Below the pieces are notes generated by a model, which saw nothing but the letters and a program-made list of their open reading frames with translations, did no database searches and was not told where the DNA came from. From positions 84,785-148,784 of the IMG/VR virus record IMGVR_UViG_3300020187_000009: a stretch of DNA of 64,000 nucleotides, one strand, 5' to 3'. Source of the DNA: a virus. Positions 6,276 to 55,108 of this stretch are shown piece by piece. The first letter of the stretch is position 1. Each line of letters begins with the position of its first letter. The translations under genes and the position numbers were made by a program.

Positions 6276-6370
6276 AGTAAATTGTTAACAACTTTATAAA
6301 ATTAAATCACTAAACAGTTTTTTATATCAATTAAATTGTTTATATTTATACTATATAATAATAACAGATA

Positions 6371-6856
6371 ATGAAGATAGCATATTTACATGGACTAGAG
6401 TCCTCAATTGATCCCAAAGATCCTAAAATAATATTTTTAAACGATAATTTTGATGAAGTATATACTCCTTCGATAAATTACAAGGATAATTCAACCTTTA
6501 GTAGATTATTAAATGATATTAGTAAAATGAAACCTGATATCATCGTGGGTTCTTCAATGGGCGGATATATTTCTTATTTAATAGGTTCTAAACTATCAAT
6601 ACCAACACTCTTATTTAATCCAGCAGTTGTTGGTAGAACATTCGAGCCTAATACCGATGACTCTATTGGTTCAACAGGAACAAAAAATTCAGTTTATTTT
6701 GGTAAATCTGACAAAATTATTGATAGATATGCAGTTAAAAAATACTTAGAAACTGAAGGAGTAGGTACCTTTAAGTACTCTAAATACACTGGAGGACATA
6801 GAGTTCCTGCTGATGTATTTATAGATGCAATTAAAAAGACAACAGGTATTAACTAG
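6371..6856 (+). CDS. YqiA/UPF0227-like alpha/beta hydrolase (esterase)
   Basis: YLHG, GSSMGG nucleophile elbow, LFNPA, GGH; early cassette at ~6279-6360. Confidence 0.85.
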   Translation: MKIAYLHGLESSIDPKDPKIIFLNDNFDEVYTPSINYKDNSTFSRLLNDISKMKPDIIVGSSMGGYISYLIGSKLSIPTLLFNPAVVGRTFEPNTDDSIGSTGTKNSVYFGKSDKIIDRYAVKKYLETEGVGTFKYSKYTGGHRVPADVFIDAIKKTTGIN

Positions 6857-11169: not shown

Positions 11170-11820
11170 ATGAAAAAGGTAAAACTATTTGAAGAGTTTG
11201 TCAACGAAGAATCTATTTCATTTGATAAATCGGGTGTTAAATCTAAATTAAAAGACAAGGTTAGAATTGCCAAAATAGCTGTTGAAAAATGGGGCGGTAG
11301 TTATACAAAGGTTTTAAAGAACGCTGAAGCAGCTCTTAAGTCTGGTAAATTACCTAATTATAAAGAACCCTTAATGGTTCAAGGTGATGACAAACAAGAC
11401 GATTATGATATATTTCGAGGAAGAAATTCTGTTAAATTAGCAGAGAAGATTTCTAAAGTAATTAAGAAGTATAAAAAATATGAAGTTGATCAGTCTTCGA
11501 CTGGAGCAGCTGGTGGATGGTCTGGTACAATGAGTTCTACTGTTGGCGGAGAAATTCAAGGTAGAGCAAACTTTAATCCAGGTGGTAGGAGAACCTACTT
11601 AATAGCAGTAACATGTGGGAGTGGGATTGATTCAAAAATTAAAGATAAAATGTTCCAAGAATTATATGAGTTGTTTTTTGTGATGGATCAATATAATTCA
11701 TTAGATGGTGGAGTAATGTTTGACTATAGTGAAGGTACAAATTACGACACTATTGGATTAACTAATGATTCTTATCAATTTGGAAACGCTGCGTCACTAT
11801 CAGACATAATGAATAACTAA
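11170..11820 (+). CDS. Putative internal head protein
   Basis: MKKVKLFEEFVNE leader. Confidence 0.6.
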   Translation: MKKVKLFEEFVNEESISFDKSGVKSKLKDKVRIAKIAVEKWGGSYTKVLKNAEAALKSGKLPNYKEPLMVQGDDKQDDYDIFRGRNSVKLAEKISKVIKKYKKYEVDQSSTGAAGGWSGTMSSTVGGEIQGRANFNPGGRRTYLIAVTCGSGIDSKIKDKMFQELYELFFVMDQYNSLDGGVMFDYSEGTNYDTIGLTNDSYQFGNAASLSDIMNN

Positions 11821-11824
11821 ATAT

Positions 11825-12037
11825 ATGAAACATACTACAGATTTTAACGAGTTTATTAATGAATCTAAAGAATCAGACGCATTAGCAAAGGGAATTAATA
11901 AAGCAATAATTAAAATCGACGATTCAATGTCATATGAGGATTTTGCTTTAGCAGTAGGTAAAGTATTAAAAGACGAATACGGGTCTCACAATTACAAGGG
12001 ATTTATGGAAGTCTTACATAAAAAATTAGGAATATAA
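11825..12037 (+). CDS. Putative internal head protein
   Basis: MKHTTDFNEFINES leader. Confidence 0.6.
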   Translation: MKHTTDFNEFINESKESDALAKGINKAIIKIDDSMSYEDFALAVGKVLKDEYGSHNYKGFMEVLHKKLGI

Positions 12038-14187
12038 TGAAATATATTAAGACAATAGAGGAACGAAGAGAAGATGTTGGTAAATACAACACTGTTAAGA
12101 AAGTAATTTCTAAATTAGGTAGAAGACCATCTGAACAAGATCTTGCAACATTTATTAATAATAACTATTATGATGTTACTGAAGTGGAACGAGGAGAAGA
12201 CGATCCATCGGCAAATGATAAAATAGCAGATTTAGTAGGATTTTACAAGTTTGATATTGATGATTGGGAAATTGCATGGGCTGATGCTCAAAACGAATCA
12301 GCAGTTACTGAAGCTAAGAATACTATTGGTCTAGCGTTTAAAGACGAAGATGATTATAATGGTTTTGTAGAATTTATTAAAGACGAAAAAGGTTCAATTA
12401 AAAAAGATTTTGGATGGGATTCTAAGACTAAGTCATGGGAAGTTATAATGGACGTTAAAGTTCTAGATAACATTTATGGTGAAGGAACTCCTAGTAATAA
12501 AGAGTCTGGATGGTACGGAGGATTACCTGGTGATTTTAAATCGGTAATAATCGAATCAGTAGTTACTGAAGCTAGATTTAATTATAAAGAAACCGGTCTT
12601 AGTGGTCAAAATTTGAAAGATGTAAAAGACGGAATTACTGGAATTAAGAATGCACTTAAAAGAGGTAATGAATCAGCGGTAATATCAAACTATGATTTAG
12701 TGCAACAAAGATTACAACAGTATGGTGGACCTAAGGCAAGTGAGTTTCTTAAAAAAATAAAACAACTAGCTGGACTGGATGAATCAGTAGTTACTGAAGG
12801 TAAAATGCCAAATAAATTCATTGGAAACGATGAAATAGTTTTTCTTAAAACAAAAGATAATTCAAGAGGAGCACACTATAACCTATATTACAAAGGACAC
12901 GATATTAATCTTGGTGGTCAATCATTTAAGAGTGAAAAGGATCTAAAGAGTTTTGCAGATAATTATATCCTGTCAATTCAGTGGTATAATAAACTAAAGT
13001 ATGAAGATGCAAAACCTTTACCAGAATCTGTAGTTACCGAAGCTAAAGCATATAAGTTAAAAGCTTCTGAATTTGGTTCAAATACATTCTCAGCGGCATA
13101 TAATGTAAAAGGCGAAACTACTTGGAGAGTTCATAGTACTTATGCTATCGATCAAGTATCTGGTGAAAACAACCCAGAAGAAAGAGATGTAGTTTTCTTT
13201 GAGGCAATGCCTATTAATAATGACATATACATTAAGATCGGTGGAATCAATAATCTTAAAAGAACCAATGGCGCTACAGTAGGTAATAACTTTGGTACTA
13301 CGATTGAAGAATGGAAAAAGGATCCAAAAGGAATTGCAAAAGAAGCTTCTGAATTTCTTACTGATGCAGCACACCTTAAATGGATAAACAAAAAAGCAAG
13401 AAGTGAAGGTCAAACAATTAAATGGGCCTTGAATGACGATTATTCTAGTGTTATTGAAGATCTAGTTAATAAATCATTAGGTCTTAGTGAATCAGGAGTT
13501 ACTACAATTGATCAGGACATAGAAAGGTATAATGTTATTAATAAAAATTCAGGTAAAGTAGTAGACAATAATTTGCCAATACATTTAGCTAAGAAATTTG
13601 CTGCAAAAAAGAAAGAATGGATTATCCAGAAAGTAGATGGATCGGTAGTTACTGAAGGTAAAACATCAGCAATATATACAGATCCTAAAACAGGAAAGGG
13701 ATATGATTTACAATATGTTTCTGGTAAAAAGAGATGGGAACTTGATGTAATGAAGAAAGATGCTAGCATATACTCTAATGCAATCACTACAATAAAAAGA
13801 GGTACTCTTGCTGAAATTCAAGAATGGTTAGATGGATATAAAATAGATTCTAGCTGGACTAAAGGTTTAAGTGAATCATTAAGTTTAAAACATGTTCTTA
13901 AACTAGATCAATTCTTGAATGAATCAAAAAGCGATTTTCAAGTTTATCACAATCAATATTCATCTGCAATTGATGAGGTTGAGAAATATGCTAATAAGAT
14001 GGGTTACGATCTAGACAATGGAGAGTATGGAAATGCATACGTTGATGGATTCTTTAAACCAAAAGATGGACAGACTAAGAAAGATACTCTAGCATTATAT
14101 AAAAACGGTAAAGAACAAAAGAAGGCAGTACACGTTCAAATATATGGTATGGGAAATAAATATGAATTAAACATGTACATTAACTAG
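12037..14187 (+). CDS. Modular polyprotein with repeated ESVVTE linkers
   Basis: Five ESVVTE-type linkers (ESAVTE, 3 x ESVVTE, GSVVTE) plus an internal KHVLKLDQFLNES. Confidence 0.65.
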   Translation: MKYIKTIEERREDVGKYNTVKKVISKLGRRPSEQDLATFINNNYYDVTEVERGEDDPSANDKIADLVGFYKFDIDDWEIAWADAQNESAVTEAKNTIGLAFKDEDDYNGFVEFIKDEKGSIKKDFGWDSKTKSWEVIMDVKVLDNIYGEGTPSNKESGWYGGLPGDFKSVIIESVVTEARFNYKETGLSGQNLKDVKDGITGIKNALKRGNESAVISNYDLVQQRLQQYGGPKASEFLKKIKQLAGLDESVVTEGKMPNKFIGNDEIVFLKTKDNSRGAHYNLYYKGHDINLGGQSFKSEKDLKSFADNYILSIQWYNKLKYEDAKPLPESVVTEAKAYKLKASEFGSNTFSAAYNVKGETTWRVHSTYAIDQVSGENNPEERDVVFFEAMPINNDIYIKIGGINNLKRTNGATVGNNFGTTIEEWKKDPKGIAKEASEFLTDAAHLKWINKKARSEGQTIKWALNDDYSSVIEDLVNKSLGLSESGVTTIDQDIERYNVINKNSGKVVDNNLPIHLAKKFAAKKKEWIIQKVDGSVVTEGKTSAIYTDPKTGKGYDLQYVSGKKRWELDVMKKDASIYSNAITTIKRGTLAEIQEWLDGYKIDSSWTKGLSESLSLKHVLKLDQFLNESKSDFQVYHNQYSSAIDEVEKYANKMGYDLDNGEYGNAYVDGFFKPKDGQTKKDTLALYKNGKEQKKAVHVQIYGMGNKYELNMYIN

Positions 14188-33294: not shown

Positions 33295-34332
33295 ATGAAA
33301 AATATCCAAGATCTTAAAGGTAAGAAAATAGCAATTGATGATGTAGTCACAACATACAGCCAAAAAAAGGCATCACATAAGAGTGCGTGGTCTTATCTTC
33401 TACAGGCTCAATTGAAACATCATGGATTAGACGTTGATGTCTTAGATAAATCCGGAAATATACATGATTATGATGTATGGTTAATTGCGATGCCAATGGA
33501 GTTTCAAGGAACTTATAATCTATTTGGAGGAGCTGGAGACGAACCAGCTGCCAGAATTGCTAGATTCTTAGATTTCAATGGCGATATATTTTGTTTGAAT
33601 AGAGAAATGCCAGATGTTGGCGAGTTCGTGAGAAGCAGATCAAAGAGCTGTACTGAAAATTGGAAAGCTCTTGACGATTTAGCAATCAGCGAGAAATGTA
33701 AAAACCTAAAAACAATAAACCTAAAAACAGATACAGGAACTTTTGTATTAGGAGACAGTCACTCAGTATCGGTAATGCCATTAGGATCTGATATTAGTAG
33801 AAACGACGGAAAAACATTATTTGGCGCGTTAAAAGAAGGATTTAGTACATATATACCAGAAGGAACAACCCATTTGATATCCTATTTTGGCAATATCGAC
33901 GTTCGACATCATATGTGCAGGCAAGCTGATCCAGTAATGTCTATCCGCAGAATTGCAATGGACTATATAGACCATCTTAAATCTCTAGATGTTCCTAATA
34001 TAACTGTGCATAAATTATTACCTATAGAATTTGAAGGTAGAAGAATTCCTAAAACAGGATGGTATAAAAAAGCTCCATTCTTTGGAACAAGAGAAGAAAG
34101 AGCAAACCTAGTTAAAATATTTAACAGAACTATACAGGATTTAGGAGAATCTGCAGGATTTACAATATTAGGATGGCCTGATCATTGGTATTCTGAAAAC
34201 CCAGAATCTTTTGCAAAAAACTATATGGAAAAGCCTGGTTCGGTACATCTAAGTAGAGAATTCTATTATTGGGATTGGAATACTGGAAATAAAAACTCGA
34301 ACCTCATTCAAAAGACAGCCAGCCTGTTTTAG
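33295..34332 (+). CDS. Phage protein with SGNH-like domain, candidate DNA-modification enzyme
   Basis: NLFGG, GDSH, GNIDVRHH, RRIPKTGWYK, SVH; C-terminal SLF. Confidence 0.55.
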   Translation: MKNIQDLKGKKIAIDDVVTTYSQKKASHKSAWSYLLQAQLKHHGLDVDVLDKSGNIHDYDVWLIAMPMEFQGTYNLFGGAGDEPAARIARFLDFNGDIFCLNREMPDVGEFVRSRSKSCTENWKALDDLAISEKCKNLKTINLKTDTGTFVLGDSHSVSVMPLGSDISRNDGKTLFGALKEGFSTYIPEGTTHLISYFGNIDVRHHMCRQADPVMSIRRIAMDYIDHLKSLDVPNITVHKLLPIEFEGRRIPKTGWYKKAPFFGTREERANLVKIFNRTIQDLGESAGFTILGWPDHWYSENPESFAKNYMEKPGSVHLSREFYYWDWNTGNKNSNLIQKTASLF

Positions 34333-36760: not shown

Positions 36761-37813
36761 ATGGCAGATAATATGAGAGCTCTTGTTAACATGGAGGTTG
36801 TCGATCGAATAGGTTATTTTTTTAACAAAGTTAATGAGAGATCTGAATTAAATTATGGATATAGAGATTCATATGACAGTGAAGGTGATGCAGCTCTTGG
36901 AGAAACTGTAGAGTATTTTCATCCTCATATATTATATGATGATCGTATGAGATATATTATGGATAATATCGTGTTATCTGATATGTCGATGAATAATATT
37001 ATTTGCAACACGATAATATCCCACTTTTATGGAGCTAGAGGAATTCACCAGATTCTAACAAGAAACTCAGATCCAAAAACAGCTCTAGTAGATTTTGAAA
37101 GACTTTTAAAAGACAAGGAATACGAAACTGAAATCAGAAAGAATATTGATGACGCAATATCACTAGGACTTGGAGTATACGGAACAACTGAACTTAGAAC
37201 CAGCCTATATGGAGCTTCAAATACTTGGGTTTCTGAAACCAGACAAACTGAACGTAATGCAGATAAGATTAACATATTACTTTGGGTTGCTGGATTTATA
37301 CCTAGAGGAATTACTAGACGAATGGCTGGCGTTAACTCTTTATCGGAAATGTTCGATATATTAACAACAATTGAAGGAGTAGGATCCTATTATGGATATC
37401 ATTGCTCAACTTCTAATTCAGTTAACCCAAATATATCAATAAACCATGACGAAAGATTCTGTGTACCTGGACCTGGTGCTAGAATGGCGCTAGACATGAT
37501 GTTTGGAGAGGGTTGTAAAGTACCACATGGTGATAGAGTAATTTGGTTTAGAGAAAACTATAAAGATCTTATTGGAGAAATTCCACTTAACGAAAATGAA
37601 TGGAATAAGGTGGTTAATGGAGTGAAGATATTTGCTGATGATCAGAACGAGCTCAAAACATATGGATGCGAAGTTGGTCTATGTCAGTTTGGAGTTTATA
37701 CTAGACTAAGTAACAATTCTAATTTAATTAACAAACGAAAAGTTGCTAGGGTTGATGAAAACATAATGCAATATTTTTTTAACAATAACTTCTCACAGGG
37801 TAGTTTGTTCTAA
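36761..37813 (+). CDS. aGPT-Pplase1 / 5-hmdU DNA kinase helical-domain-like DNA base hypermodification protein
   Basis: F..VNER, DDR, HhH-like GVGSYYGY, DERFCVPGPGA, E..LCQF..Y; C-terminal QGSLF. Confidence 0.65.
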   Translation: MADNMRALVNMEVVDRIGYFFNKVNERSELNYGYRDSYDSEGDAALGETVEYFHPHILYDDRMRYIMDNIVLSDMSMNNIICNTIISHFYGARGIHQILTRNSDPKTALVDFERLLKDKEYETEIRKNIDDAISLGLGVYGTTELRTSLYGASNTWVSETRQTERNADKINILLWVAGFIPRGITRRMAGVNSLSEMFDILTTIEGVGSYYGYHCSTSNSVNPNISINHDERFCVPGPGARMALDMMFGEGCKVPHGDRVIWFRENYKDLIGEIPLNENEWNKVVNGVKIFADDQNELKTYGCEVGLCQFGVYTRLSNNSNLINKRKVARVDENIMQYFFNNNFSQGSLF

Positions 37814-38248: not shown

Positions 38249-38716
38249 ATGGCAAATATAGATAACGAATGTAAAGATCTAGAAGTACAAGACTTTTATG
38301 ATCAGTCAACGACTCATCTAGATGATATAATGACTCATCAGAAAGAGATGCAAGAAAAAACTTACGGTTTTAATTTTGAAGAGATGTCAATCAGGGACAT
38401 CATGAATTTCTGGCATGTTAACACACATGCTGTAGTAGATGAGATACACGAGATGACGGATGCACTTGGAGGTATCAAAGACGGTAGTGGAAACGCAGTA
38501 TGGAAATATTGGAAAAAAGACTTTTCTAAATTTGAGACTATGAAAATTTCTGATATGTCTGAAGGAGACAAAAAAGAATTATATATGGAATGGGTAGATA
38601 TTCTACACTTTTTTATTAATTACGCTGCATCTATTGGACTTGACGCAAAGACCGCTTATAATTACTATTTTGCTAAAGCGGAAGAGAATAAAAACCGCCA
38701 AAAAAGAGGCTACTAA
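38249..38716 (+). CDS. T4 gp56-like dCTP/dUTP pyrophosphatase
   Basis: NEC, DE..E...LG, AVWKYWK, DMS, EWVDILHF, N..RQ..GY. Confidence 0.85.
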   Translation: MANIDNECKDLEVQDFYDQSTTHLDDIMTHQKEMQEKTYGFNFEEMSIRDIMNFWHVNTHAVVDEIHEMTDALGGIKDGSGNAVWKYWKKDFSKFETMKISDMSEGDKKELYMEWVDILHFFINYAASIGLDAKTAYNYYFAKAEENKNRQKRGY

Positions 38717-39562: not shown

Positions 39563-40534
39563 ATGAATAGAATAGAAGAACAATACCGAGCGTTACTTGG
39601 AACCCTATTAGAAAACTCAACAGAAAAATCAGATCGCACTGGAACTGGAACACTATCAGTATTCGGTCGCCAGATCAGACACAACATGAAGGATGGATTT
39701 CCTCTGCTAACTACCAAGAGGATGGCGGTTAAGACAATGTTAGTGGAGTTAAAATGGTTTCTAAGAGGTGATACTAACATTAAATATCTTGTTGATAATG
39801 GGTGTAACATCTGGAATGGCGATGCTTATAAGAAATACTGTAAAGCACACCCCTCTGAATATCAAGATGATATGTTTACCCAAGAGGAATTCGTAGAGCA
39901 TATTAAAGAAGATGAATCATTCGCTAAAAATTGGGGTGAGTTAGGTCCTATCTATGGTAAACAATGGAGAGAATGGGGTTCTAGAAGTTCTTATAATAAA
40001 ATCACAGGTGAAAATAATATAATGAATCCTGGACATGATCAAATCGCAAACCTAATCAATGAACTTAAAACAAATCCAGATTCACGTAGACTTATGGTCA
40101 ATGCTTGGAATGTTGGTGAGTTAGATCAAATGACACTTCCACCATGTCACTATGGATTCCAAGTTTATACACGATTAACTACTAGAGAAGAAAAGATTGT
40201 AAATCCTGGAAAATACAGAGCAATCTCTTTAATGTGGAACCAAAGAAGTTGCGATTTATTTCTCGGACTTCCGTTTAATATTGCAAGCTATGCAGCACTT
40301 CTTTGTTTAATAGCAGAAGAGGTTAATATGGTTCCAGATCAATTAATTGGAAACTTAGGTGATGTTCACTTATATAAGAATCATATTGAACAAGCAAGAG
40401 AACAATTAACTAGGGAAATGTATGATTTACCAACAGTTGAATTTAGTAACGTAGATTTATTAGGTGGTGAATTCGATATTGAAGTAAAGGATTATAAATA
40501 TCATCCAAGTATTAAAGCGCCTCTATCAAATTAA
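39563..40534 (+). CDS. thyA: Thymidylate synthase
   Basis: DRTGTGT, FPLLTTK, GPIYGKQWR, LPPCH, QRSCDLFLGLPFN. Confidence 0.95.
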   Translation: MNRIEEQYRALLGTLLENSTEKSDRTGTGTLSVFGRQIRHNMKDGFPLLTTKRMAVKTMLVELKWFLRGDTNIKYLVDNGCNIWNGDAYKKYCKAHPSEYQDDMFTQEEFVEHIKEDESFAKNWGELGPIYGKQWREWGSRSSYNKITGENNIMNPGHDQIANLINELKTNPDSRRLMVNAWNVGELDQMTLPPCHYGFQVYTRLTTREEKIVNPGKYRAISLMWNQRSCDLFLGLPFNIASYAALLCLIAEEVNMVPDQLIGNLGDVHLYKNHIEQAREQLTREMYDLPTVEFSNVDLLGGEFDIEVKDYKYHPSIKAPLSN

Positions 40535-40588: not shown

Positions 40589-41269
40589 ATGAAAGAGAAG
40601 AGAGATAAAGCAGAAGATGCATGGCAGATTATGAGAATTCAAGGAGAATTTACAAAAGGGTTCGATACATTTAGCGAATTAGGACCTTGTATTTCAGTAT
40701 TCGGTTCTGCAAGAACTAAACAAGGAAGCAAATGGTATAATGAAGCACGTGAATTTGGCAAGCTAATTGCATGTGAAGGTTTTGGAGTTATTACAGGGGG
40801 TGGTCCAGGCATTATGGCAGCCGCAAATCATGGAGCGCATGAAGTTAGTGGTAAATCTATCGGTATCGGTATAGAATTACCGTTCGAGGCAGGTATGAAT
40901 AAGTACGTAGATCTTGGTATTGAATGTAGATACTTTTTTACAAGAAAGGTTATGTTCTTAAAATACTCACAGGCATTCGTAGTATTTCCAGGAGGAGTTG
41001 GAACATTAGATGAAACATTTGAAGCGATAACATTAGCGCAATGTGGGCATAACATAAAATATCCAATAGTTCTTGTAGGTAAAGAATACTGGAGTGGTTT
41101 AATAGATTGGCTAAGAGGCACTGTTCTAAAAAATAATAAAATGAGTCCAGAAGATTTTGATTTATTTAGAATAGTAGACAGCGCAGAAGAAGCAAGAGAT
41201 AAATTAATGGAATACCATAACAAATATATGACGAACCCCGATTATTTAGGACCTAAAACAAACTTTTAA
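40589..41269 (+). CDS. LOG family nucleotide phosphoribohydrolase (TIGR00730-like)
   Basis: VFGSAR, TGGGPGIM, FFTRKVMF, PGGVGTLDE. Confidence 0.9.
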   Translation: MKEKRDKAEDAWQIMRIQGEFTKGFDTFSELGPCISVFGSARTKQGSKWYNEAREFGKLIACEGFGVITGGGPGIMAAANHGAHEVSGKSIGIGIELPFEAGMNKYVDLGIECRYFFTRKVMFLKYSQAFVVFPGGVGTLDETFEAITLAQCGHNIKYPIVLVGKEYWSGLIDWLRGTVLKNNKMSPEDFDLFRIVDSAEEARDKLMEYHNKYMTNPDYLGPKTNF

Positions 41270-41270: not shown

Positions 41271-42356
41271 ATGAAAAACAATAAAATCTTTCTACACAAT
41301 TATTTAAACGCATATGCACCAGTAGCACAAGAGACTGAAGGTCAGCAAATCTGGACAGATTATATTAAACAGTATGTTGATTTTTTAAAGCAGGATGCAT
41401 ATGGAACTTCGTATGGTGTGCTTAAGCGTAAATTAAGGAAATATGAGACTCTTGATGTAAATACACATAAAGTAGTTATTGAAGCACACTGTGATGAGAT
41501 TGCATGGATTATTACACACATTGAAAGTGATGGTATGATCAGAGTAAAGCGACACGGAGGCAGTGATAATATGATCGCACCTTCTAAGACTGTAATGATC
41601 CATACACATGACGGTAGGAAATTACGTGGTCTTTTTGGATGGCCAGCAATTCATACTCGTGAAAAGTACACATCAATGGGCTATGAACAACATGAGCTTT
41701 GGGTAGATATGGGTCTTAAAGATAAAGAAGCAGTACTTAAAGCTGGAGTTGAGATTGGTAACCTTATAACATTCGACACTCAATTAGAAGAGATCGGAGA
41801 CTATTATGTTGGTCGATCATTAGATAATAAGATAGGCGGATATATTATAGCAGAGGCACTTAGAAAGATCTCAGAAGATAATGTTAACTTACCATATGAT
41901 TTATATGTTGTTAATAGCGTTCAAGAAGAGGTTGGTCTTCATGGTGCTAAAAAGATTGCTAAACACTTAAAGGCTGATTTGGCCCTGGTACATGATGTGT
42001 GTCACAATACAAATACACCTAAGATTGACAAGGCAAAGGATGGAGATAATAAAGGTGGAGATGGTCCATGCTTAGAATATACTGCACAAAATCATAGAGA
42101 CATTAATAAAATGTTAAGAGAGGTTGCAAAGGATAATAAGATTCCAGTTCAACTAACAGCTGGGTCGATGGGCAATGATACAATGGCATTCTTTATGGAG
42201 AATACACCAACTGCCATCATCGCTTCACCGCTTAAATACATGCACACAACCGTTGAGTCAGTACACCGTCGAGACGTAAAGTATGCTATTAAATTATTTG
42301 TTGAGTTTTTAAAGGCATTAACCCCAGAAAAAATCAATAAAATTAATAATAGATAA
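41271..42356 (+). CDS. M42 family metallopeptidase
   Basis: AHCDEI, SLDNKIG, QEEVGL, HDV, YMHTTVE. Confidence 0.9.
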   Translation: MKNNKIFLHNYLNAYAPVAQETEGQQIWTDYIKQYVDFLKQDAYGTSYGVLKRKLRKYETLDVNTHKVVIEAHCDEIAWIITHIESDGMIRVKRHGGSDNMIAPSKTVMIHTHDGRKLRGLFGWPAIHTREKYTSMGYEQHELWVDMGLKDKEAVLKAGVEIGNLITFDTQLEEIGDYYVGRSLDNKIGGYIIAEALRKISEDNVNLPYDLYVVNSVQEEVGLHGAKKIAKHLKADLALVHDVCHNTNTPKIDKAKDGDNKGGDGPCLEYTAQNHRDINKMLREVAKDNKIPVQLTAGSMGNDTMAFFMENTPTAIIASPLKYMHTTVESVHRRDVKYAIKLFVEFLKALTPEKINKINNR

Positions 42357-42510: not shown

Positions 42511-44526
42511 ATGTCATTAGCAGACGGATACGAAAATGAAAAGGGCCGAAATAAAAAGACCAAGACTAATACGCCATTCTTAGATGAGTATGGTGAAGAT
42601 ATGACTAAATTAGCAGCAGACGGTAAATTAGACCCTATTATTGGTAGAGATAAAGAGATCTATAGAATTTGTCAGATTCTTGCTCGTAGGAAAAAGAATA
42701 ATCCTATTATATTAGGAGATCCTGGTGTAGGTAAAACTGCAATTGTTGAAGCGATTGCACAGCGAATTGTCAGTAAAAAAGTTGCAAGAGTGCTACTAAA
42801 CAAAAGAGTAATTTCTATCAGCATGACAAATATAGTCGCAGGTACAAAATATCGTGGCGAATTTGAAGAGAGAATGAAAAGCATTGTAGATGAACTCAAA
42901 TCTGCTAAAAACATTATCGTATTCATCGATGAGTTACATACAATAGTAGGAGCAGGCGGTGTAAGTGGTGCATTAGACGCTTCTAACATTTTAAAACCAG
43001 CATTAGCAAGAGGCCAAGTACAATGTATTGGAGCAACGACACTAGATGAATATAGAGAAAACATCGAAGACGATGGTGCACTAACTCGTAGATTTCAAGA
43101 AGTTTTCGTGGATCCTCCTTCGGTTGATGATACTATTGAGATTCTTAATAGAATTAAAGGACAGTATGAAGAACACCACTCAGTTGAATATACTGACGAT
43201 GCAATAATAGCATGCGTAAAAATGAGCGAGCGATATATTAAATCTAGAGAATTGCCAGATAAAGCAATTGATCTATTAGACGAATCTGGTGCAAGAACTC
43301 ATTTGCTAGAAGTTAAAATACCTGCAAAAATTAAAAACCTTGAAAGAGATGCTGAAATTGTAAGATTAAAAAAAGAATCAGCAGTATCCGGACAAGATTA
43401 TGAATTAGCAGCACAGCTGCGCGATGAGCAGCTTGTAATCGATGACAAGGTAATAGTTGAAACTGAAAAGTGGGAAGATTCTCTTAAAAAAACAAAGAGA
43501 AAGGTAGATGTTGAAGATATTGCAGAAACTATTTCTATGCAAACTGGAATTCCAGTACAGCGACTAGGCCTTGATGAAAAGAAACTCATCATATCTATGG
43601 CTAAGGAGATAAAAAAACAAATTATAGGACAAGACGCTGCGGTTGATGCTCTTTCTACTGTAATTAAGAGATCTCGAACAGGAGTAAGCAGTCATAAAAA
43701 GCCAGTAGGTTCATTTATGTTCTTGGGTCCTACTGGTGTAGGTAAAACTGAGACCGTTAAGGCACTTGCTGAATATATGTTTGGGGATACTGACGCTATG
43801 GTTAGAATAGATATGTCAGAATACCAAGAAAAGTTTAATGTTTCTCGTCTAATTGGTTCTCCTCCAGGATACGTAGGACATGAAGATGGTGGACAATTAA
43901 CAGAGGCAGTTCGTAGAAAGCCGCACTCTGTGATTCTATTCGATGAGGTTGAAAAGGCACATCCTGATGTATTTAACACATTGTTGCAAGTTTTAGATGA
44001 TGGTAGATTAACGGATTCTAGTGGAAGGATTGTTGATTTTACAAATACAATTATTGTAATGACTTCAAATATAGGTGCTCGTAAGGTAGCAGACTTTGGA
44101 ACAGGAGTAGGATTTCAAAGCGATAGTATATTGCTACAACAAAGCGCTAAGATTGAAGGTATAATTAAGAAAGAATTAAAGAATAAATTTAGTCCTGAAT
44201 TTTTAAACAGACTAGACGATATTATTCTATTTGATCACCTAACGATCGAAAATGTAATTAAGATAGTAGACATTGAGTTGTCAACATTTAACGAAAGAAT
44301 GATAGAAGAAGGATATAATTTTAAATTCATGAAAAGCGCCAAAGAGTTTATAGCAAATGAAGGATACGACAAGGCATACGGTGCTCGACCTGTAAAAAGA
44401 GCAATTCAAAAATATGTAGAGGACCTAATTGCAGACCTAATATTAACTGAAGAAATTACTCCAAGAGAAGATGCGTATACTCTTAGTAAACTTAAGTCAG
44501 ATAATAAACTAAACCTTAAATCCTAA
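42511..44526 (+). CDS. clpC: ClpC-like AAA+ unfoldase lacking the Clp N-domain
   Basis: GDPGVGKT and GPTGVGKT Walker A motifs, UVR-like DYELAAQLRD, VGF ClpP-docking loop. Confidence 0.85.
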   Translation: MSLADGYENEKGRNKKTKTNTPFLDEYGEDMTKLAADGKLDPIIGRDKEIYRICQILARRKKNNPIILGDPGVGKTAIVEAIAQRIVSKKVARVLLNKRVISISMTNIVAGTKYRGEFEERMKSIVDELKSAKNIIVFIDELHTIVGAGGVSGALDASNILKPALARGQVQCIGATTLDEYRENIEDDGALTRRFQEVFVDPPSVDDTIEILNRIKGQYEEHHSVEYTDDAIIACVKMSERYIKSRELPDKAIDLLDESGARTHLLEVKIPAKIKNLERDAEIVRLKKESAVSGQDYELAAQLRDEQLVIDDKVIVETEKWEDSLKKTKRKVDVEDIAETISMQTGIPVQRLGLDEKKLIISMAKEIKKQIIGQDAAVDALSTVIKRSRTGVSSHKKPVGSFMFLGPTGVGKTETVKALAEYMFGDTDAMVRIDMSEYQEKFNVSRLIGSPPGYVGHEDGGQLTEAVRRKPHSVILFDEVEKAHPDVFNTLLQVLDDGRLTDSSGRIVDFTNTIIVMTSNIGARKVADFGTGVGFQSDSILLQQSAKIEGIIKKELKNKFSPEFLNRLDDIILFDHLTIENVIKIVDIELSTFNERMIEEGYNFKFMKSAKEFIANEGYDKAYGARPVKRAIQKYVEDLIADLILTEEITPREDAYTLSKLKSDNKLNLKS

Positions 44527-44548
44527 TATAATATTAAAATAATATAAT

Positions 44549-45388
44549 ATGAGTTTTTCACAAACATTTATAGATTTAGTCAATGAGATCGAAGACAACG
44601 GTACTGAATCTTCTCCAAGAGATATGAAAGTAAAAGAAGCAATGATGGCTTCTTTTGATATAGATCCAACGCATCCAATTGCAGATTTTAAAGACCGTCC
44701 ATTTAACTTTAAATATTTTACAGGAGAGCTTGCATGGTATCTCCACAGAGATAATGATGTTGATTACATTTCTAACTTTTCTAAATTTTGGAAAAACTTA
44801 ACAAATGAAGGAACTAATGAAATTAATTCTAATTATGGAAGTTTAGTACTTAACGATAAGCAAGTTGGATGGGTTGTTGATTCTTTAGTAAATGATAAGA
44901 ATTCAAGACAGGCAATTATGTTTTTTAATCAGCCTAAATTTCAAGTAGAAGGAAATAAAGATTTTGTATGTACTCTATACGCAAACTTTTTTATTAGAAA
45001 TAATACGCTATATATGAAGGTTCAGATGAGATCAAATGATATATTCTTTGGACTTACATTTGATGCACCATTCTTTTCATTCCTTCATCAATCTATTTTT
45101 TTAATACTAAAAGATAAATATAAAGACCTTGAACTTGGTCACTATTTCCATAATTCAGATAACCTACATTTTTATGAAAGACATTTTAATCTAGCATCAG
45201 AAATTAAAGAAAATGGAATCGGAAGCGAATACTCATTAATACTAAAAAACAAATTACTAGATTATAATAGTGATAATGGAGTATATCTAACTGACCAGGG
45301 ATTAGAATTTTTGCAAAGAGTTGATAATTCAATTAAGATGAAGGACGCAAATTACAAGAATATATTAAACGATTATTTCGAAATATAA
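44549..45388 (+). CDS. Thymidylate synthase paralogue, dCMP hydroxymethylase (T4 gp42)-like
   Basis: INSNYG, SRQA, DFVCT, MRSNDIFFGLTFD (Asp at the base-specificity position), LHFYERHF. Confidence 0.8.
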   Translation: MSFSQTFIDLVNEIEDNGTESSPRDMKVKEAMMASFDIDPTHPIADFKDRPFNFKYFTGELAWYLHRDNDVDYISNFSKFWKNLTNEGTNEINSNYGSLVLNDKQVGWVVDSLVNDKNSRQAIMFFNQPKFQVEGNKDFVCTLYANFFIRNNTLYMKVQMRSNDIFFGLTFDAPFFSFLHQSIFLILKDKYKDLELGHYFHNSDNLHFYERHFNLASEIKENGIGSEYSLILKNKLLDYNSDNGVYLTDQGLEFLQRVDNSIKMKDANYKNILNDYFEI

Positions 45389-45389: not shown

Positions 45390-45710
45390 ATGGAAGAATA
45401 TACTGAAGATAATATACCAATAATTAGAATAGATCCACTAAAAATTTCAAAGGCAGATCTAGATCTAAATTTAATGGCAAAATATGATGTTTTCTACCGA
45501 AGAATAGTCGAATACACTCTAGCATACATTGAAGATATGCCAGTAACCGAAATACTAGTTATATTAATAGACGATGAAGGAATAGAATATGAAATGTGCC
45601 TTCCTCCTCAAGGATTTTCTAAGTCTCTTAATAAGTCAATGGAATACTTTAAACAAATAGAAGAATACGAAACCTGCGATTTAATAAAGCAAATTTTAAA
45701 AAACATATGA
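45390..45710 (+). CDS. Hypothetical protein with UVR-like C-terminus
   Basis: YF..IEEYETC motif. Confidence 0.6.
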   Translation: MEEYTEDNIPIIRIDPLKISKADLDLNLMAKYDVFYRRIVEYTLAYIEDMPVTEILVILIDDEGIEYEMCLPPQGFSKSLNKSMEYFKQIEEYETCDLIKQILKNI

Positions 45711-46384
45711 ATTATTTCCCAAAAGATAAAGAATTTAACAGGTTTGCACAGAGTGAACTTAACATTGGATCCTCAAAAATAGACATGTATTCGAAGCATA
45801 TACAAGGATCGATGACACCTTATATCCTAGAAGAGAGAGAATTAAGAGCTACTCAAATGGATATTTTTAGTAGATTAATGATGGACAGATTACTGTGGGT
45901 TGCTGGTCCAGTAAATGATCAAATGTCAACTGTAGTACAAGCACAGCTGATGTTTTTAGATACCACATCATCTGATGATATTACAATGCATATTGATTCT
46001 CCAGGAGGCTCAGTTAAGTCAGGACTATCTATGGTAGATGTAATGGACTACATTAAAGCTGATATTAGAACCATTAATACTGGAATGGCCGCCTCAATGG
46101 GTTCAGTATTATTAGGCGCTGGAACTAAAGGTAAGAGGATGTCACTAAAACACTCAACAACAATGCTACATCAATCTTCTGGAGGATTCAGTGGTAATAT
46201 ACAAGACGCTGAAATTGATTGGAAAAATTGGAAAGAAGTAAACCGCGAACTTTTTGTACTTCTAGGAGAATATTGCGGAAAACCAGCAGACGTAGTTATG
46301 AATGACGCTACTAGAGATTTCTGGCTTAGCGCTGAACAGGCAGTCGAGTACGGTATTATTGATGAAATAATTAAAAAAAGATAA
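45707..46384 (+). CDS. clpP: ATP-dependent Clp protease proteolytic subunit
   Basis: DIFSRL, SPGGSV, AASMG (Ser), MLHQ (His), RDFWLSA (Asp). Confidence 0.95.
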   Translation: MNYFPKDKEFNRFAQSELNIGSSKIDMYSKHIQGSMTPYILEERELRATQMDIFSRLMMDRLLWVAGPVNDQMSTVVQAQLMFLDTTSSDDITMHIDSPGGSVKSGLSMVDVMDYIKADIRTINTGMAASMGSVLLGAGTKGKRMSLKHSTTMLHQSSGGFSGNIQDAEIDWKNWKEVNRELFVLLGEYCGKPADVVMNDATRDFWLSAEQAVEYGIIDEIIKKR

Positions 46385-51970: not shown

Positions 51971-53893
51971 ATGGCGATATACGATCCAACAAACCCACCT
52001 CTTTTTTTATCAGGTACAATAAGTTCAGTTATTTCGGGCAATACATATCCATACATTGATGATACTGGCCTAAACGCTGCGGGAGCTAAAATAGAATATA
52101 CTATATCAGTATCTACAATAGGACAACAGAGTGTTGGTACTGCTGATGTACGAACAGGTAACCAAAAGAAATATACAGCAATCGATATTAAAACAGGAGA
52201 TTGGGTATCTAGTACTAACGGTCAAATTTGTTTACAGATAACAAGTGTTATTTCAAAGACCGATAGCTCAATAGAGTTTGTCGCAAAGGATGTTGATATG
52301 ATTACATATAAGACATATGCTAGTAGCACGTTTTCTAATGGTAGTCAAATTGCATTCTTTGAGGCTTCTGACAACGGACAGCCCTTAATAACTACTTCTG
52401 GAACAAGTACGTTCTTTCAACCTGGTGCAATTGATAGGATACAAGGTAGATTTGCCGCTGTTGAGGAAACTGAAAGATACAGATTTGAATTTGAAACAGA
52501 TCAGACTGTAATTGATAAAGGAGACACTATATCAATAAACGAGACTTCTGGAGACTTTGTTCAGTTTGGATCAGCAGGTGCATCAAATATACCGCTAGGT
52601 ATTGTACTTGAAAAAACAATGGGAGGCAGGGTAGTTTATATAAAACCCTTTAATACTATTATTGATAACCATTCAAACCCTGAACTTTTAACAGGTTCTG
52701 CTGGAGATGTATATTACACAGATCCTTCAAATCCTGGTAAAATGACAACAACTAGTTCCGTGGGATCTCAAGCTATATTGTTACATATAAAAGATGCAGT
52801 ACCTACTATAATAGAATCGACAGTCGCTGGTTATCTTCCGACATCAGGAGATTCACTAATAATAAATGATGTTGTTTCATACACTGGCGGAGTAGACCCT
52901 ACGCCAACAAGCACTCAGATCTTTGCAGATCTAATTAACCTAGGAACGGCATCACACTCAGTAGTAGCATCTAAGAATTCTATATTCGCTGCTACCACAA
53001 CAGGTGATGGAACTGGACCTACAAATGGAGTAGTTATTGTTACTATAACAGACGATAATGGCTCTAGTTATACTCCAGTAGACGTAACAATTGGCGACGG
53101 AACTACTAGTACTACTGTTACATTTGATGAAAATACAGGACAGCCTCTATTAGCTCTTTCTGCGCTTGGCGCTTCAAACTATGAGGCGTTTACTGCAACT
53201 GAAATTGCAACAATACTTAATAGTGAGTTTATAGCAAACAGTATTAATTTATTAGCATCTACTGTAGATTCTGGAAACATTGATTTCCCTAACTTAAAAA
53301 TATCAGCAACTAATCCTACCGCAACTATTAACGTAACAGGTACTGGAGCTGACGTACTTGGAGATACTTTCTTAACCGGTACTGGAGTTGCAACTTCTAC
53401 GTCAGCGTCGAGTTCTGACTTTTTAGTTTTAACCAGGTCAGATGGTGGAGATGTTTTAATAACTTCAAGTCAGGGATCTTACATTAATACTAACGGAATA
53501 ACTTCTTCGTCATCGGGTTCTCCTGCATCATTATTAATGCTTGAAGGAGCAGTATCTGCTAGTAGCGAAACTGGTGTTGGAAGTGCTAATGATCTAGATC
53601 AAGTTCCTTTAAATACTACACTAGACGGAGATGCATCTGGTGTATTCATTACATATACTCCATATCAAGATTCAAACGTACAGATTCATATTAATGGAAT
53701 TGGCTCAAATCTAGGAAACGGTATTAAAACAAAAGACTGCTGGTTTTCTGGAGACGGAGGAACAACAGCTAGACTTGTTGCTGACATCACATCTGGTGAT
53801 GAATTACATTGGAATGGTTCTATAGCAGGTTACCAACTAGAAACAACAGATGAGGTAGATGTGATATACGATGCATCTAGTGACGATGTATAA
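51971..53893 (+). CDS. Putative virion structural protein
   Basis: 640-aa S/T/G-rich ORF in the fibre operon. Confidence 0.6.
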   Translation: MAIYDPTNPPLFLSGTISSVISGNTYPYIDDTGLNAAGAKIEYTISVSTIGQQSVGTADVRTGNQKKYTAIDIKTGDWVSSTNGQICLQITSVISKTDSSIEFVAKDVDMITYKTYASSTFSNGSQIAFFEASDNGQPLITTSGTSTFFQPGAIDRIQGRFAAVEETERYRFEFETDQTVIDKGDTISINETSGDFVQFGSAGASNIPLGIVLEKTMGGRVVYIKPFNTIIDNHSNPELLTGSAGDVYYTDPSNPGKMTTTSSVGSQAILLHIKDAVPTIIESTVAGYLPTSGDSLIINDVVSYTGGVDPTPTSTQIFADLINLGTASHSVVASKNSIFAATTTGDGTGPTNGVVIVTITDDNGSSYTPVDVTIGDGTTSTTVTFDENTGQPLLALSALGASNYEAFTATEIATILNSEFIANSINLLASTVDSGNIDFPNLKISATNPTATINVTGTGADVLGDTFLTGTGVATSTSASSSDFLVLTRSDGGDVLITSSQGSYINTNGITSSSSGSPASLLMLEGAVSASSETGVGSANDLDQVPLNTTLDGDASGVFITYTPYQDSNVQIHINGIGSNLGNGIKTKDCWFSGDGGTTARLVADITSGDELHWNGSIAGYQLETTDEVDVIYDASSDDV

Positions 53894-53934
53894 GGTATAA
53901 TACTACTTTAATAATAATATATAGGTATATTTAT

Positions 53935-53964
53935 GAGCCCGGTGATTAATTTTCATCGGGCTTT
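53935..53964 (+). terminator. Hairpin/terminator
   Basis: GAGCCCGGTGA/TCATCGGGCTT inverted repeat. Confidence 0.55.
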
Positions 53965-54025
53965 GATATATAATATCAAGGTACAATAATGTAACCTTAG
54001 GCCTAAAAATAAACAAATATAAATT

Positions 54026-55108
54026 ATGGCACAAATTTTTCAAAAACAAGTATCCGGTTTAATATCGGCATTAGCAGCAAAAGACACTATCACTAGTGTT
54101 GATTCTAAAGATGCAAGTGTATTAGCAGCTGCAAACTCAGTTGGTACTAATCTTTCTGTAGATTCTAAAGATGCAAGTGTAATAGCGTTGGCTACTGCAG
54201 CTAACACTGCTCTTTCTGTAGATTCTAAAGATACAAGTGTATTAACAGCTGCAAACGGTTATACAGATGGTGAAATCACTGACGCTTCTATTGATTCTAA
54301 AGATGCAAGCGTAATAGCGTTGGCTACTGCAGCTAACACTGCTCAATCTGTAGATTCTAAAGATGCAAGTGTATTAACAGCTGCAAACGGTTATACAGAT
54401 GGTGAAATCACTGACGCTTCTATTGATTCTAAAGATGCAAGTGTATTAGCAGCTGCAAACTCAGTTGGTACTAATCTTTCTGTAGATTCTAAAGATGCAA
54501 GTGTATTAGTATCTGCAAACGGTTATACAGATGGTGAAATCACTGACGCTTCTATTGATTCTAAAGATGCAAGTGTATTAGCAGCTGCAAACGCAGTTGG
54601 TACTAATCTTTCTGTAGATTCTAAAGATGCAAGTGTATTAGTATCTGCAAACGGTTATACAGATGGTGAAATCACTGACGCTTCTATTGATTCTAAAGAT
54701 GCAAGCGTAATAGCGTTGGCTACTGCAGCTAACACTGCTCAATCTGTAGATTCTAAAGATGCAAGTGTATTAGCAGCTGCAAACTCAGTTGGTACTAATC
54801 TTTCTGTAGATTCTAAAGATGCAAGTGTATTAGTAGCTGCTGAAGCTTACGCCGATAATATAGAATCAGGACTTCACAATTACTTAGAAGAAGCAGGAAC
54901 TTATAATACAACTAACGTATTTGGTCTCGCTGGTAACTTCGATGTAGCTGGAGGAGATTTTGAAGTGTACATTAACGGAATGCGTATAGCAAAAAAGTAC
55001 TTTACGCTAACTCCAGGATCTGATGTATCGTTTAACAGCACAGGATCTAACTTAGGTTATGATGTTGAAGCAACTGATGAAGTATCAATACACGGACACA
55101 TTGCTTAA
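54026..55108 (+). CDS. Repeat-rich alpha-helical fibre protein
   Basis: 12 S(V/I)DSKD(A/T)SV repeats with ANGYTD motifs; C-terminal EVYINGMR domain. Confidence 0.7.
   Translation: MAQIFQKQVSGLISALAAKDTITSVDSKDASVLAAANSVGTNLSVDSKDASVIALATAANTALSVDSKDTSVLTAANGYTDGEITDASIDSKDASVIALATAANTAQSVDSKDASVLTAANGYTDGEITDASIDSKDASVLAAANSVGTNLSVDSKDASVLVSANGYTDGEITDASIDSKDASVLAAANAVGTNLSVDSKDASVLVSANGYTDGEITDASIDSKDASVIALATAANTAQSVDSKDASVLAAANSVGTNLSVDSKDASVLVAAEAYADNIESGLHNYLEEAGTYNTTNVFGLAGNFDVAGGDFEVYINGMRIAKKYFTLTPGSDVSFNSTGSNLGYDVEATDEVSIHGHIA

What the first reader, a model, noticed from the sequence alone, without database searches (positions are those of the whole stretch)
44549..45388. Second thymidylate synthase has dCMP-type specificity, implying cytosine replacement
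Seen: ThyA (39563) has RSCDLFLGLPFN, whereas this paralogue has RSNDIFFGLTFD and DFVCT. Established: Asn at this position (E. coli N177) selects dUMP and Asp (T4 gp42 D179) selects dCMP. With intact ThyA and a gp56-like dCTPase, the modified base is inferred to be C, not T. This is notable because the aGPT-Pplase1/HMUDK family was characterised on hydroxymethyluracil.
Basis: partly seen in the sequence, partly recalled or inferred. Interest (0 to 1): 0.75.

Follow-up and report, generated by a model that had tools for sequence, protein, structure and literature searches.

The report
T4-type dCMP hydroxymethylase in marine phage
The second thymidylate-synthase-like gene of this uncultured marine T4-like phage carries every published sequence mark of the T4 enzyme that makes hydroxymethyl-cytosine, so the phage very probably builds its DNA with a modified cytosine; the enzyme is an ordinary kind, but its steady company suggests a cytosine decoration not yet described.

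Summary
ORF 44549-45388 (+, 279 aa) is a thymidylate-synthase-fold paralogue with DFVCT and RSNDIFFGLTFD. A canonical ThyA (PPCH, RSCDLFLGLPFN) lies at 39563-40534.

At eight active-site columns (E. coli L143, C146, H147, R166, S167, C168, D169, N177) the protein reads DCTRSNDD. That is identical to T4 and Aeromonas phage 31 gp42.
- Canonical TS reads LCH..DN.
- Five dUMP hydroxymethylases read DCN..DN and carry a one-residue insertion.
- RB69 5-hydroxy-dCMP synthase reads ECT..ND.
- The Xp12 (5mC phage) homologue reads NCP..DD.

The nearest solved sequence is T4 dCMP hydroxymethylase. The nearest folds are MilA and T4 dCH.

The contig is T4-like and also encodes a gp56-like dCTPase.

Trees keep the protein outside the dUMP-hydroxymethylase clade. 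They do not resolve it as sister to T4 gp42, and the AU test gave p 0.08.

In viral contigs carrying relatives of the neighbouring PF18723 protein, every non-canonical TS homologue is DCTRSNDD. This includes two complete genomes. That neighbour has no kinase P-loop, so the label "HMUDK" is imprecise.

Verdict: a dCMP hydroxymethylase, a new member of a known kind. Nothing was tested chemically. First readers noted the same paralogue on at least eight other genomes.

The parts
44549..45388 (+). gp42-type dCMP hydroxymethylase (5hmdCMP synthase), 279 aa. Key codons: E60 at 44726-44728, D138 at 44960-44962, C141 at 44969-44971, T142 at 44972-44974, R161-D164 at 45029-45040, D172 at 45062-45064.
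   Evidence: PF00303 at 4.2e-20. The best PDB sequence hit is T4 dCH, 1.4e-17. The signature DCTRSNDD is identical to T4 gp42. The AF2 model has pLDDT 97.5, and its best fold matches are MilA and T4 dCH. Residues invariant across 105 homologues: Y56 E60 S94 Y96 D116 R120 D138 C141 R161 S162 H207 Y209.
39563..40534 (+). Canonical thymidylate synthase ThyA (dUMP to dTMP), 323 aa
   Evidence: PF00303 at 8.5e-93 over the full model. Its signature is LCHRSCDN.
38249..38716 (+). T4 gp56-like all-alpha NTP pyrophosphatase (candidate dCTPase/dUTPase), 155 aa
   Evidence: BLASTP against T4 gp56 gives 31% identity and E 3e-19. It matches phrog_173 and phrog_18650. Its orthologue in G001 matches PF08761 dUTPase_2. 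A homologue lies within 10 kb of the PF18723 gene in 35 of 80 related loci.
36761..37813 (+). PF18723 (HMUDK_hel) domain protein without a P-loop. It is a probable downstream DNA-modification enzyme, not a demonstrated kinase.
   Evidence: PF18723 at 7.9e-14, 52 bits. It has no Walker A motif. Only weak similarity to the ECML-4 (ViI-like) PF18723 protein was found. Its relatives co-occur only with DCTRSNDD-type TS homologues.
33295..34332 (+). Conserved partner protein (phrog_13881 / N-terminal part of phrog_17781). It has no Pfam match.
   Evidence: A homologue is present in 73 of 80 loci that carry the PF18723 relative. A 37%-identical homologue is present in G001.

Best explanation
ORF 44549-45388 encodes a folate-dependent deoxycytidylate 5-hydroxymethyltransferase of the T4 gp42 type.

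**Proposed catalysis (inferred from homology)**
- Cys141 attacks C6 of dCMP.
- Asp172 reads the N3/N4 face of cytosine and so selects dCMP over dUMP.
- Methylene-tetrahydrofolate donates the one-carbon unit to C5.
- Position 138 is Asp rather than the Leu of thymidylate synthase. Water therefore reaches the exocyclic methylene, and the product is 5-hydroxymethyl-dCMP rather than 5-methyl-dCMP.

**Proposed pathway (inferred from the T4 paradigm)**
- The gp56-like pyrophosphatase at 38249-38716 would return dCTP to dCMP.
- A nucleotide kinase, not identified on this half-genome, would carry hm-dCMP on towards hm-dCTP.
- The phage polymerase would then put hydroxymethylcytosine into DNA in place of cytosine.
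- ThyA continues to supply dTMP, as td does in T4.

**Status of the steps**
- Shown here: fold, residue signature, homology and gene company.
- Inferred: substrate, product, extent of replacement and any later decoration.
For: - **Closest solved sequence:** T4 dCH at E 1.4e-17, ahead of every thymidylate synthase.
- **Closest folds:** MilA (CMP hydroxymethylase, TM 0.78-0.80) and T4 dCH (TM 0.80 on the target), from a model with pLDDT 97.5.
- **Eight-column signature:** DCTRSNDD, identical to T4 and Aeromonas phage 31 gp42. It is distinct from ThyA, five dUMP hydroxymethylases, RB69 gp48 and the Xp12 homologue.
- **Published meaning of these columns:** N177D means dCMP, L143D/E means hydroxymethyl, and D169N means the 5-hydroxy-dCMP synthase class (PMC13326640). 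Positions 177 and 147 separate cytosine-modified from unmodified metagenomic contigs (PMC8670742). Ser167 and Arg126' mark deoxyribose substrates (PMC5175136).
- **Family conservation:** 140 of 142 representative homologues are C-T...D and none is D169N.
- **Tree:** the dUMP hydroxymethylases form their own clade (96-99% support) that excludes the query.
- **Genome context:** the contig is T4-like, with gp41, uvsX, split gp43, gp4, gp2, nrdA, gp56 and gp42 homologues.
- **Gene company:** in loci and whole contigs carrying relatives of the neighbouring PF18723 gene, every non-canonical TS homologue is DCTRSNDD. These homologues fall into nine clusters at 60% identity and include two complete genomes.
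Against: - There is no biochemical or chemical evidence.
- The careful tree leaves T4 gp42, RB69 gp48, the dUMP hydroxymethylases and the query's clade as an unresolved polytomy.
- Forcing the query together with the dUMP hydroxymethylases costs 27 log-likelihood units but gives p-AU 0.081, so that grouping is not formally rejected.
- The second phosphate-binding Arg (E. coli R127) is Gln here. The SP8 and ECML-4 hydroxymethylases share this, but T4 does not.
- No homologue of T4 gp1 dNMP kinase, dCMP deaminase, alc, denA or a glucosyltransferase was found. The contig is only about 49% of a genome.
- The Xp12 homologue is taken to be the dCMP methylase only because that genome is fully 5mC and has a single TS homologue.
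Confidence: 0.85

Rival explanations
1. It is a dCMP methyltransferase that makes 5-methyl-dCMP, as in Xanthomonas phage Xp12, so the genome carries 5mC rather than 5hmC.
For: Asp at position 177 fits any dCMP-using enzyme. The product type is read only from a correlation at one position.
Against: - Position 143 is Asp, as in T4 gp42 and MilA. Xp12 has Asn there and ThyA has Leu.
- Position 147 is Thr, where Xp12 has Pro.
- Relatives in the same clade sit next to a carbamoyltransferase of the type shown to act on 5hmC.
- The gene's neighbours resemble enzymes that work on hydroxymethyl groups.
Confidence: 0.05
2. It is a flavin-dependent 5-hydroxy-dCMP synthase of the RB69 gp48 / DLP3 gp80 type, feeding ether-linked glycosylation.
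For: That class is also T/D at positions 147 and 177 and acidic at 143. It is widespread in T4-like phages. The contig has glycosyltransferase genes elsewhere, but this rests only on an unchecked first-reader note seen.
Against: The diagnostic D169N change is absent. The query has RSND, whereas RB69 gp48 has RSQN in my own alignment. None of the 142 representative homologues has Asn there.
Confidence: 0.04
3. It is a dUMP hydroxymethylase, and the neighbouring PF18723 cluster works on hydroxymethyluracil as in ViI, M6, PhiW-14 and SP10.
For: PF18723 proteins were known only from hmU-hypermodifying phages. The AU test does not formally reject a grouping with dUMP hydroxymethylases (p 0.081).
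Against: - The query lacks Asn177, Asn147 and the one-residue insertion shared by all five reference dUMP hydroxymethylases.
- It lies outside their well-supported clade.
- A gp56-like dCTPase is present.
- No N/N-type homologue occurs in any related contig, including two complete genomes.
Confidence: 0.03
4. It is a CMP (ribonucleotide) hydroxymethylase like MilA or BcmA, making a free base or nucleoside metabolite rather than a DNA precursor.
For: MilA is the top fold match and also covers the C-terminal extension. A LOG-family nucleotide-nucleosidase-like gene lies nearby at 40589-41269.
Against: The two ribose determinants of MilA (Ala176, Lys133') are Ser162 and Arg120 here. Both are invariant in the family and match the deoxyribose-specific enzymes. 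The setting is a T4-like replication and nucleotide-metabolism module.
Confidence: 0.02

Closest known systems
Bacteriophage T4 gp42, deoxycytidylate 5-hydroxymethyltransferase (PDB 1B5E, 6A9A)
   Same: - Same fold.
- Same eight-column active-site signature, DCTRSNDD.
- Shared INSNYG, DF(V/M)CT and MRSND motifs.
- Conserved Glu60, Tyr96, His207 and Tyr209.
- A T4-like genome that also has a gp56-like dCTPase and a separate thymidylate synthase.
   Different: - About 28% identity.
- Sisterhood is not resolved in the tree.
- It carries a roughly 60-residue C-terminal extension that T4 lacks.
- R127 is Gln.
- It lies between ClpB-like and ClpP genes rather than beside the DNA polymerase and beta-glucosyltransferase.
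- No glucosyltransferase homologue was found.
MilA, CMP 5-hydroxymethylase of mildiomycin biosynthesis (PDB 5B6D)
   Same: It is the best structural match (TM 0.78-0.80), including the C-terminal part. It has Asp at positions 177 and 143.
   Different: MilA has Ala176 and Lys133', which favour ribose. The query has Ser162 and Arg120, which favour deoxyribose. MilA is a bacterial secondary-metabolism enzyme.
dUMP hydroxymethylases of SP8/SPO1, ViI-like and M6-like phages
   Same: Same fold. Acidic residue at position 143 and a hydroxymethyl product. They are neighbours of PF18723 proteins in hypermodifying phages.
   Different: They have Asn at 147 and 177 and a one-residue insertion before Asn177. 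They form a separate clade.
RB69 gp48 / DLP3 gp80 5-hydroxy-dCMP synthases (PMC13326640)
   Same: They are thymidylate synthase homologues of T4-like phages with Thr147 and Asp177, and they use dCMP.
   Different: They carry D169N and use a flavin and O2. The query keeps Asp164.
TS homologues beside 5hmC carbamoyltransferases (MetaGPA, PMC8670742; Acinetobacter phage MD-2021a thyA_2)
   Same: They lie in the same 19-row clade as the query and have the T/D signature. A downstream enzyme acts on the hydroxymethyl group.
   Different: Their downstream chemistry is carbamoylation. Here the partners are PF18723, inositol-phosphate-synthase-like and FkbM-type proteins.

Membership tests
T4 gp42-type dCMP hydroxymethylase (5hmdCMP synthase) | Thymidylate-synthase fold with the catalytic Cys (E. 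coli C146 / T4 C148) | tested here: met
   PF00303 at 4.2e-20. C141 is invariant in 105 homologues. The model has pLDDT 97.5 and matches T4 dCH and MilA.
T4 gp42-type dCMP hydroxymethylase (5hmdCMP synthase) | Asp at E. coli N177 / T4 D179 (cytosine specificity) | tested here: met
   D172 aligns with T4 D179 in HMMER and MAFFT alignments.
T4 gp42-type dCMP hydroxymethylase (5hmdCMP synthase) | Acidic residue at E. coli L143 (water access, hydroxymethyl rather than methyl product) | tested here: met
   D138 is invariant in the family. The criterion comes from PMC13326640.
T4 gp42-type dCMP hydroxymethylase (5hmdCMP synthase) | Asp retained at E. coli D169 (not the D169N of 5hodCMP synthases) | tested here: met
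   D164 lies in RSND. The RB69 gp48 control shows RSQN in the same alignment.
T4 gp42-type dCMP hydroxymethylase (5hmdCMP synthase) | Ser167 and Arg126' (deoxyribose rather than ribose substrate) | tested here: met
   S162 and R120 are invariant. The criterion comes from PMC5175136.
T4 gp42-type dCMP hydroxymethylase (5hmdCMP synthase) | Common descent with T4 gp42 to the exclusion of other TS-family classes | tested here: inconclusive
   The quick tree puts both in one clade with 97% support. The careful tree leaves a polytomy.
T4 gp42-type dCMP hydroxymethylase (5hmdCMP synthase) | Converts dCMP plus methylene-THF to 5hmdCMP | not testable with these tools
   This needs an enzyme assay or in vivo LC-MS.
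dUMP hydroxymethylase (SPO1 gp29 / SP8 type) | Asn at E. coli 177 and at 147, with a one-residue insertion before Asn177 | tested here: not met
   The query has D172 and T142 and no insertion. All five references have N/N plus the insertion.
dUMP hydroxymethylase (SPO1 gp29 / SP8 type) | Membership of the dUMP-hydroxymethylase clade | tested here: not met
   That clade has 96-99% support and excludes the query. The AU test of the forced grouping gives p 0.081, which is short of formal rejection.
5-hydroxy-dCMP synthase (RB69 gp48 type) | Asn at E. coli D169 | tested here: not met
   The query has Asp164.
Canonical thymidylate synthase ThyA | Leu143, His147, Asn177 | tested here: not met
   The query has Asp, Thr and Asp at these positions. 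The window's own ThyA at 39563 has Leu, His and Asn.
   The neighbour has no Walker A motif. In PAE1 and ZC01 a separate 190-aa P-loop protein precedes the PF18723 protein. tblastn with these kinases finds nothing on the contig.

The most novel reading that the evidence does not exclude
The hydroxymethylcytosine made by this enzyme is not glucosylated as in T4. Instead it would be the substrate of a post-replicative, non-sugar hypermodification, and the DNA would carry a cytosine derivative not yet described chemically.

The proposed enzymes are a divergent subfamily of PF18723 ('HMUDK_hel') proteins and a conserved partner, acting together with inositol-phosphate-synthase-like and FkbM-type enzymes.

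The evidence is association only.
- In 80 viral loci with this PF18723 subfamily, the partner is present in 73 and the inositol-synthase-like gene in 77.
- Every non-canonical TS homologue in these loci and contigs is of the dCMP type.
- No Tet/JBP dioxygenase was found that could supply hydroxymethyluracil.
Probability: 0.45. Interest if true: 0.75.

Novelty: new member of a known kind. Interest (0 to 1): 0.48.

Why it matters
- **What the enzyme tells us.** By itself the gene is an ordinary member of a well-understood enzyme class. It says that a widespread group of large marine T4-like phages replaces or modifies cytosine. More than 1000 close homologues occur in metagenomes, and the phage was recovered in several independent marine studies.
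- **Practical consequences.** Cytosine modification affects how such DNA behaves in restriction, sequencing-library preparation and methylation-aware analyses.
- **The larger point.** Thymine-hypermodification-type proteins (PF18723 and partners) here keep exclusive company with a cytosine-specific hydroxymethylase. The characterised 5-HMUDK does not act on hmC (PMC6457204). A cytosine branch of that chemistry would therefore be new, and it is directly testable by expressing a few genes.

Tried and rejected
- **Nucleotide search:** megablast of 20 kb of the window against 50,697 phage records found nothing.
- **Trees:** phylogeny was expected to place the query beside T4 gp42. The careful tree did not resolve this. 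The AU test against a dUMP-hydroxymethylase grouping was only p 0.081. The classification therefore rests on residue signatures rather than topology.
- **Genes not found on this contig:**
  - Tet_JBP and dCMP deaminase Pfam families were not found.
  - T4 gp1, cd, alc, denA, beta-gt and frd were not found by tblastn.
  - None of these absences counts as evidence, because the contig is about 49% of a genome. The relative G001 does have a cd homologue.
- **Tet_JBP in relatives:** a search of five related records was negative. It had no positive control among the control genomes.
- **P-loop 5-HMUDK:** proteins from PAE1 and ZC01 found nothing on the contig.
- **Sequencing runs:** all holders are kept as contigs, with no raw long reads, so no direct signal of base modification could be sought. 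No RNA holder is listed.
- **ThyA as an argument:** I considered the intact ThyA as evidence for C rather than T and rejected it as non-discriminating, because T4 keeps td.
- **Kinase tree:** I considered building a tree of 'HMUDK' relatives labelled by hydroxymethylase type. I dropped it after finding that these proteins lack the kinase domain and that the window-type profile barely detects the hmU-phage PF18723 proteins.

Full report
**The observation**

The ORF at 44549-45388 (+) encodes 279 residues. Translation of 44960-45064 gives DFVCTLYANFFIRNNTLYMKVQMRSNDIFFGLTFD. The canonical ThyA at 39563-40534 has PPCH and RSCDLFLGLPFN.

Both proteins match Pfam PF00303. ThyA matches at 8.5e-93 and the paralogue at 4.2e-20. 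These are the only two PF00303 matches on the 148,784-bp IMG/VR viral contig from which the window comes. CheckV rates that contig about 49% complete.

Contigs from two other public marine runs, from different studies, cover the gene without a single difference. The gene is therefore real and intact.

**What the protein is**

Against all PDB sequences the best hit is T4 deoxycytidylate hydroxymethylase (1.4e-17). MilA CMP hydroxymethylase follows, and thymidylate synthases come only after that. An AlphaFold model built on 105 homologues has pLDDT 97.5. Its best Foldseek matches are MilA (TM 0.78-0.80) and T4 dCH (TM 0.80 on the target), ahead of the synthases.

- the window's own ThyA;
- gp42 of T4 and of Aeromonas phage 31;
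- the hydroxymethylase of SP8, whose DNA is 100% 5hmdU (PMC7653180);
- hydroxymethylases of SH-Ab 15599, PAE1 (M6-like), ECML-4 (ViI-like) and ZC01;
- RB69 gp48;
- the single TS homologue of Xp12, whose DNA is 5mC.

The table gives the residues at E. coli positions L143, C146, H147, R166, S167, C168, D169 and N177.

| Enzyme | Signature |
|---|---|
| Query | DCTRSNDD |
| T4 gp42 | DCTRSNDD |
| Aeromonas phage 31 gp42 | DCTRSNDD |
| Window ThyA | LCHRSCDN |
| Five dUMP hydroxymethylases | DCNRS.DN, plus a one-residue insertion before the final Asn |
| RB69 gp48 | ECTRSQND |
| Xp12 homologue | NCPRSSDD |

The published meaning of these columns is as follows.
- N177D switches the substrate from dUMP to dCMP (PMC13326640).
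- An acidic residue at 143 goes with hydroxymethyl rather than methyl products (PMC13326640).
- D169N marks the flavin-dependent 5-hydroxy-dCMP synthases (PMC13326640).
- Positions 177 and 147 are the two columns that best separate cytosine-modified from unmodified metagenomic contigs (PMC8670742).
- Ser167 and Arg126' mark deoxyribose substrates, whereas MilA has Ala and Lys (PMC5175136).

The query has Ser162 and Arg120, and both are invariant in its family. Every determinant therefore points to dCMP as substrate and 5-hydroxymethyl-dCMP as product.

**Family and phylogeny**

The family is large. There are 5074 cluster representatives at E up to 0.001 and more than 1000 close homologues in metagenomes, including marine ones. 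Of 142 representative homologues, 140 are C-T...D, 91 have exactly DCTRSNDD, and none has D169N.

A 54-row tree separates three groups: canonical synthases, a dUMP-hydroxymethylase clade (96% support), and a T/D clade (97% support) that holds both T4 gp42 and the query.

A careful 32-row tree keeps the dUMP-hydroxymethylase clade (99/96) apart from the query. It leaves T4 gp42, RB69 gp48 and the query's 19-row clade as a polytomy.

Forcing the query together with the dUMP hydroxymethylases costs 27.4 log-likelihood units, with p-AU 0.081. Topology alone, however, does not prove sisterhood with gp42.

**Genomic setting**

The contig is T4-like. tblastn with T4 proteins finds gp41, uvsX, a split gp43, gp4, gp2, nrdA, gp56 and gp42 homologues. 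ORF 38249-38716 is 31% identical to T4 gp56 dCTPase/dUTPase (E 3e-19). Its orthologue in a relative matches PF08761.

The order ThyA, LOG-family protein, ClpB-like, hydroxymethylase, small ORF, ClpP is conserved in relatives at 65-72% identity. These relatives lie on contigs of 212-248 kb.

One relative, G001 (212 kb, 76% complete), has:
- ThyA;
- the paralogue;
- the gp56-like gene;
- a dCMP deaminase homologue;
- a homologue of 33295-34332.

G001 lacks the PF18723, inositol-synthase-like, FkbM and cREC genes. Between the two conserved flanking genes it carries a different cassette. The hydroxymethylase is thus a core gene of the lineage, and the downstream cassette is variable.

**Which base do the neighbours work on?**

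I fetched 80 viral loci encoding relatives (41-89% identity) of the PF18723 protein at 36761-37813.
- Eighteen of the 80 have a non-canonical TS-family gene within 10 kb. All 18 read DCTRSNDD, and none is of the dUMP type.
- Searching 27 of the longer contigs in full gave 13 with TS-family genes. Again every non-canonical one is DCTRSNDD.
- These 13 include two complete genomes: one of 153 kb with terminal repeats, which also has ThyA, and one of 38.9 kb.
- The linked hydroxymethylases fall into nine clusters at 60% identity.
- No Tet_JBP match was found in five of these records. That search has no positive control.
- The gp56-like gene lies within 10 kb in 35 of the 80 loci, the inositol-synthase-like gene in 77, and the 33295 homologue in 73.

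As a control, four phages with N/N-type dUMP hydroxymethylases each have a PF18723 gene scoring 137-280 bits. In three of them it lies next to the hydroxymethylase.

The protein at 36761-37813 scores only 52 bits on PF18723 and has no Walker A motif. In PAE1 and ZC01 the P-loop kinase is a separate 190-aa gene upstream of the PF18723 gene. No homologue of that kinase is detectable on the contig. A profile of the window-type proteins scores 400-600 bits on its own subfamily and at most 29 bits on the hmU-phage proteins.

No kinase is therefore shown here. The commercial 5-HMUDK does not phosphorylate hmC (PMC6457204). I checked the motif and the separate kinase genes myself.

**Verdict**

The enzyme is a T4-type dCMP hydroxymethylase (confidence about 0.85), a new member of a known kind. 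Cytosine replacement follows from the T4 paradigm together with the dCTPase homologue, but it is inferred and its extent is unknown.

The more interesting reading is that a thymine-hypermodification-type toolkit has been coupled to hydroxymethylcytosine. It is supported by consistent gene association only.

First readers of this scan noted the same paralogue on at least eight other genomes. Several follow-up reports describe hmC-linked cassettes in other T4-like phages. The finding is therefore recurrent rather than unique to this window.

Noticed in passing
window 40589-41269: A LOG/SLOG-family protein (PF03641, PF18306) follows ThyA directly. The pair is conserved in relatives at 72% identity. 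Members of this family include nucleotide 5'-monophosphate nucleosidases, so it may prune a nucleotide pool.
   Followed up: partly
window 42511-44526 and 45707-46384: A phage-encoded ClpB/ClpC-like double AAA+ protein (671 aa) and a ClpP protease flank the hydroxymethylase. The arrangement is conserved in relatives at 75-80% identity.
   Followed up: partly
window 41271-42356: An M42 aminopeptidase gene lies between the LOG gene and ClpB. In L013 an RNaseH-like gene takes this place. In G001 the M42 homologue (75% identity) lies about 190 kb away.
   Followed up: no
G001 (L033) 12906-13617: The orthologue of the hydroxymethylase in the 212-kb relative is matched in two overlapping pieces in different frames (12906-13427 and 13423-13617). 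This is a frameshift or an assembly error.
   Followed up: no
L039 2067-7004 (G001 122067-127004): Between the homologue of 33295-34332 and the gp56-like gene, the relative carries a different cassette. It consists of two proteins without Pfam matches (402 and 368 aa) and a weak PALP-like protein. This suggests swappable decoration modules.
   Followed up: partly
G000 contig 53628-54101 (outside the window): A 157-aa ORF has an N-terminal P-loop and a guanylate-kinase-like TTRxPRxGE motif. It is a candidate for the missing dNMP kinase.
   Followed up: no
L015 (Logan contig, homologue P0121, 47% identity): A T/D-type TS homologue lies downstream of NTP_transferase, HAD hydrolase, a 476-aa C5 DNA methylase, CTP_transf_3 and FkbM methyltransferase genes. 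This is another kind of company for the same enzyme.
   Followed up: no
G000 contig 5827-6726 and 11453-12550: T4 gp43 (DNA polymerase B) matches two separate places about 5 kb apart, with an nrdA homologue between them. The same is seen in G001, which points to a split polymerase gene.
   Followed up: no
protein P0478: A 49%-identical relative of the PF18723 protein is annotated in a Crocinitomix algicola (Bacteroidota) genome contig of 177 kb. It may be a prophage or a clue to the host.
   Followed up: no
window 44527-44548: The 22-nt spacer before the start codon is pure A/T (ATATAATATTAAAATAATATAAT) and shows no Shine-Dalgarno-like purine run.
   Followed up: no
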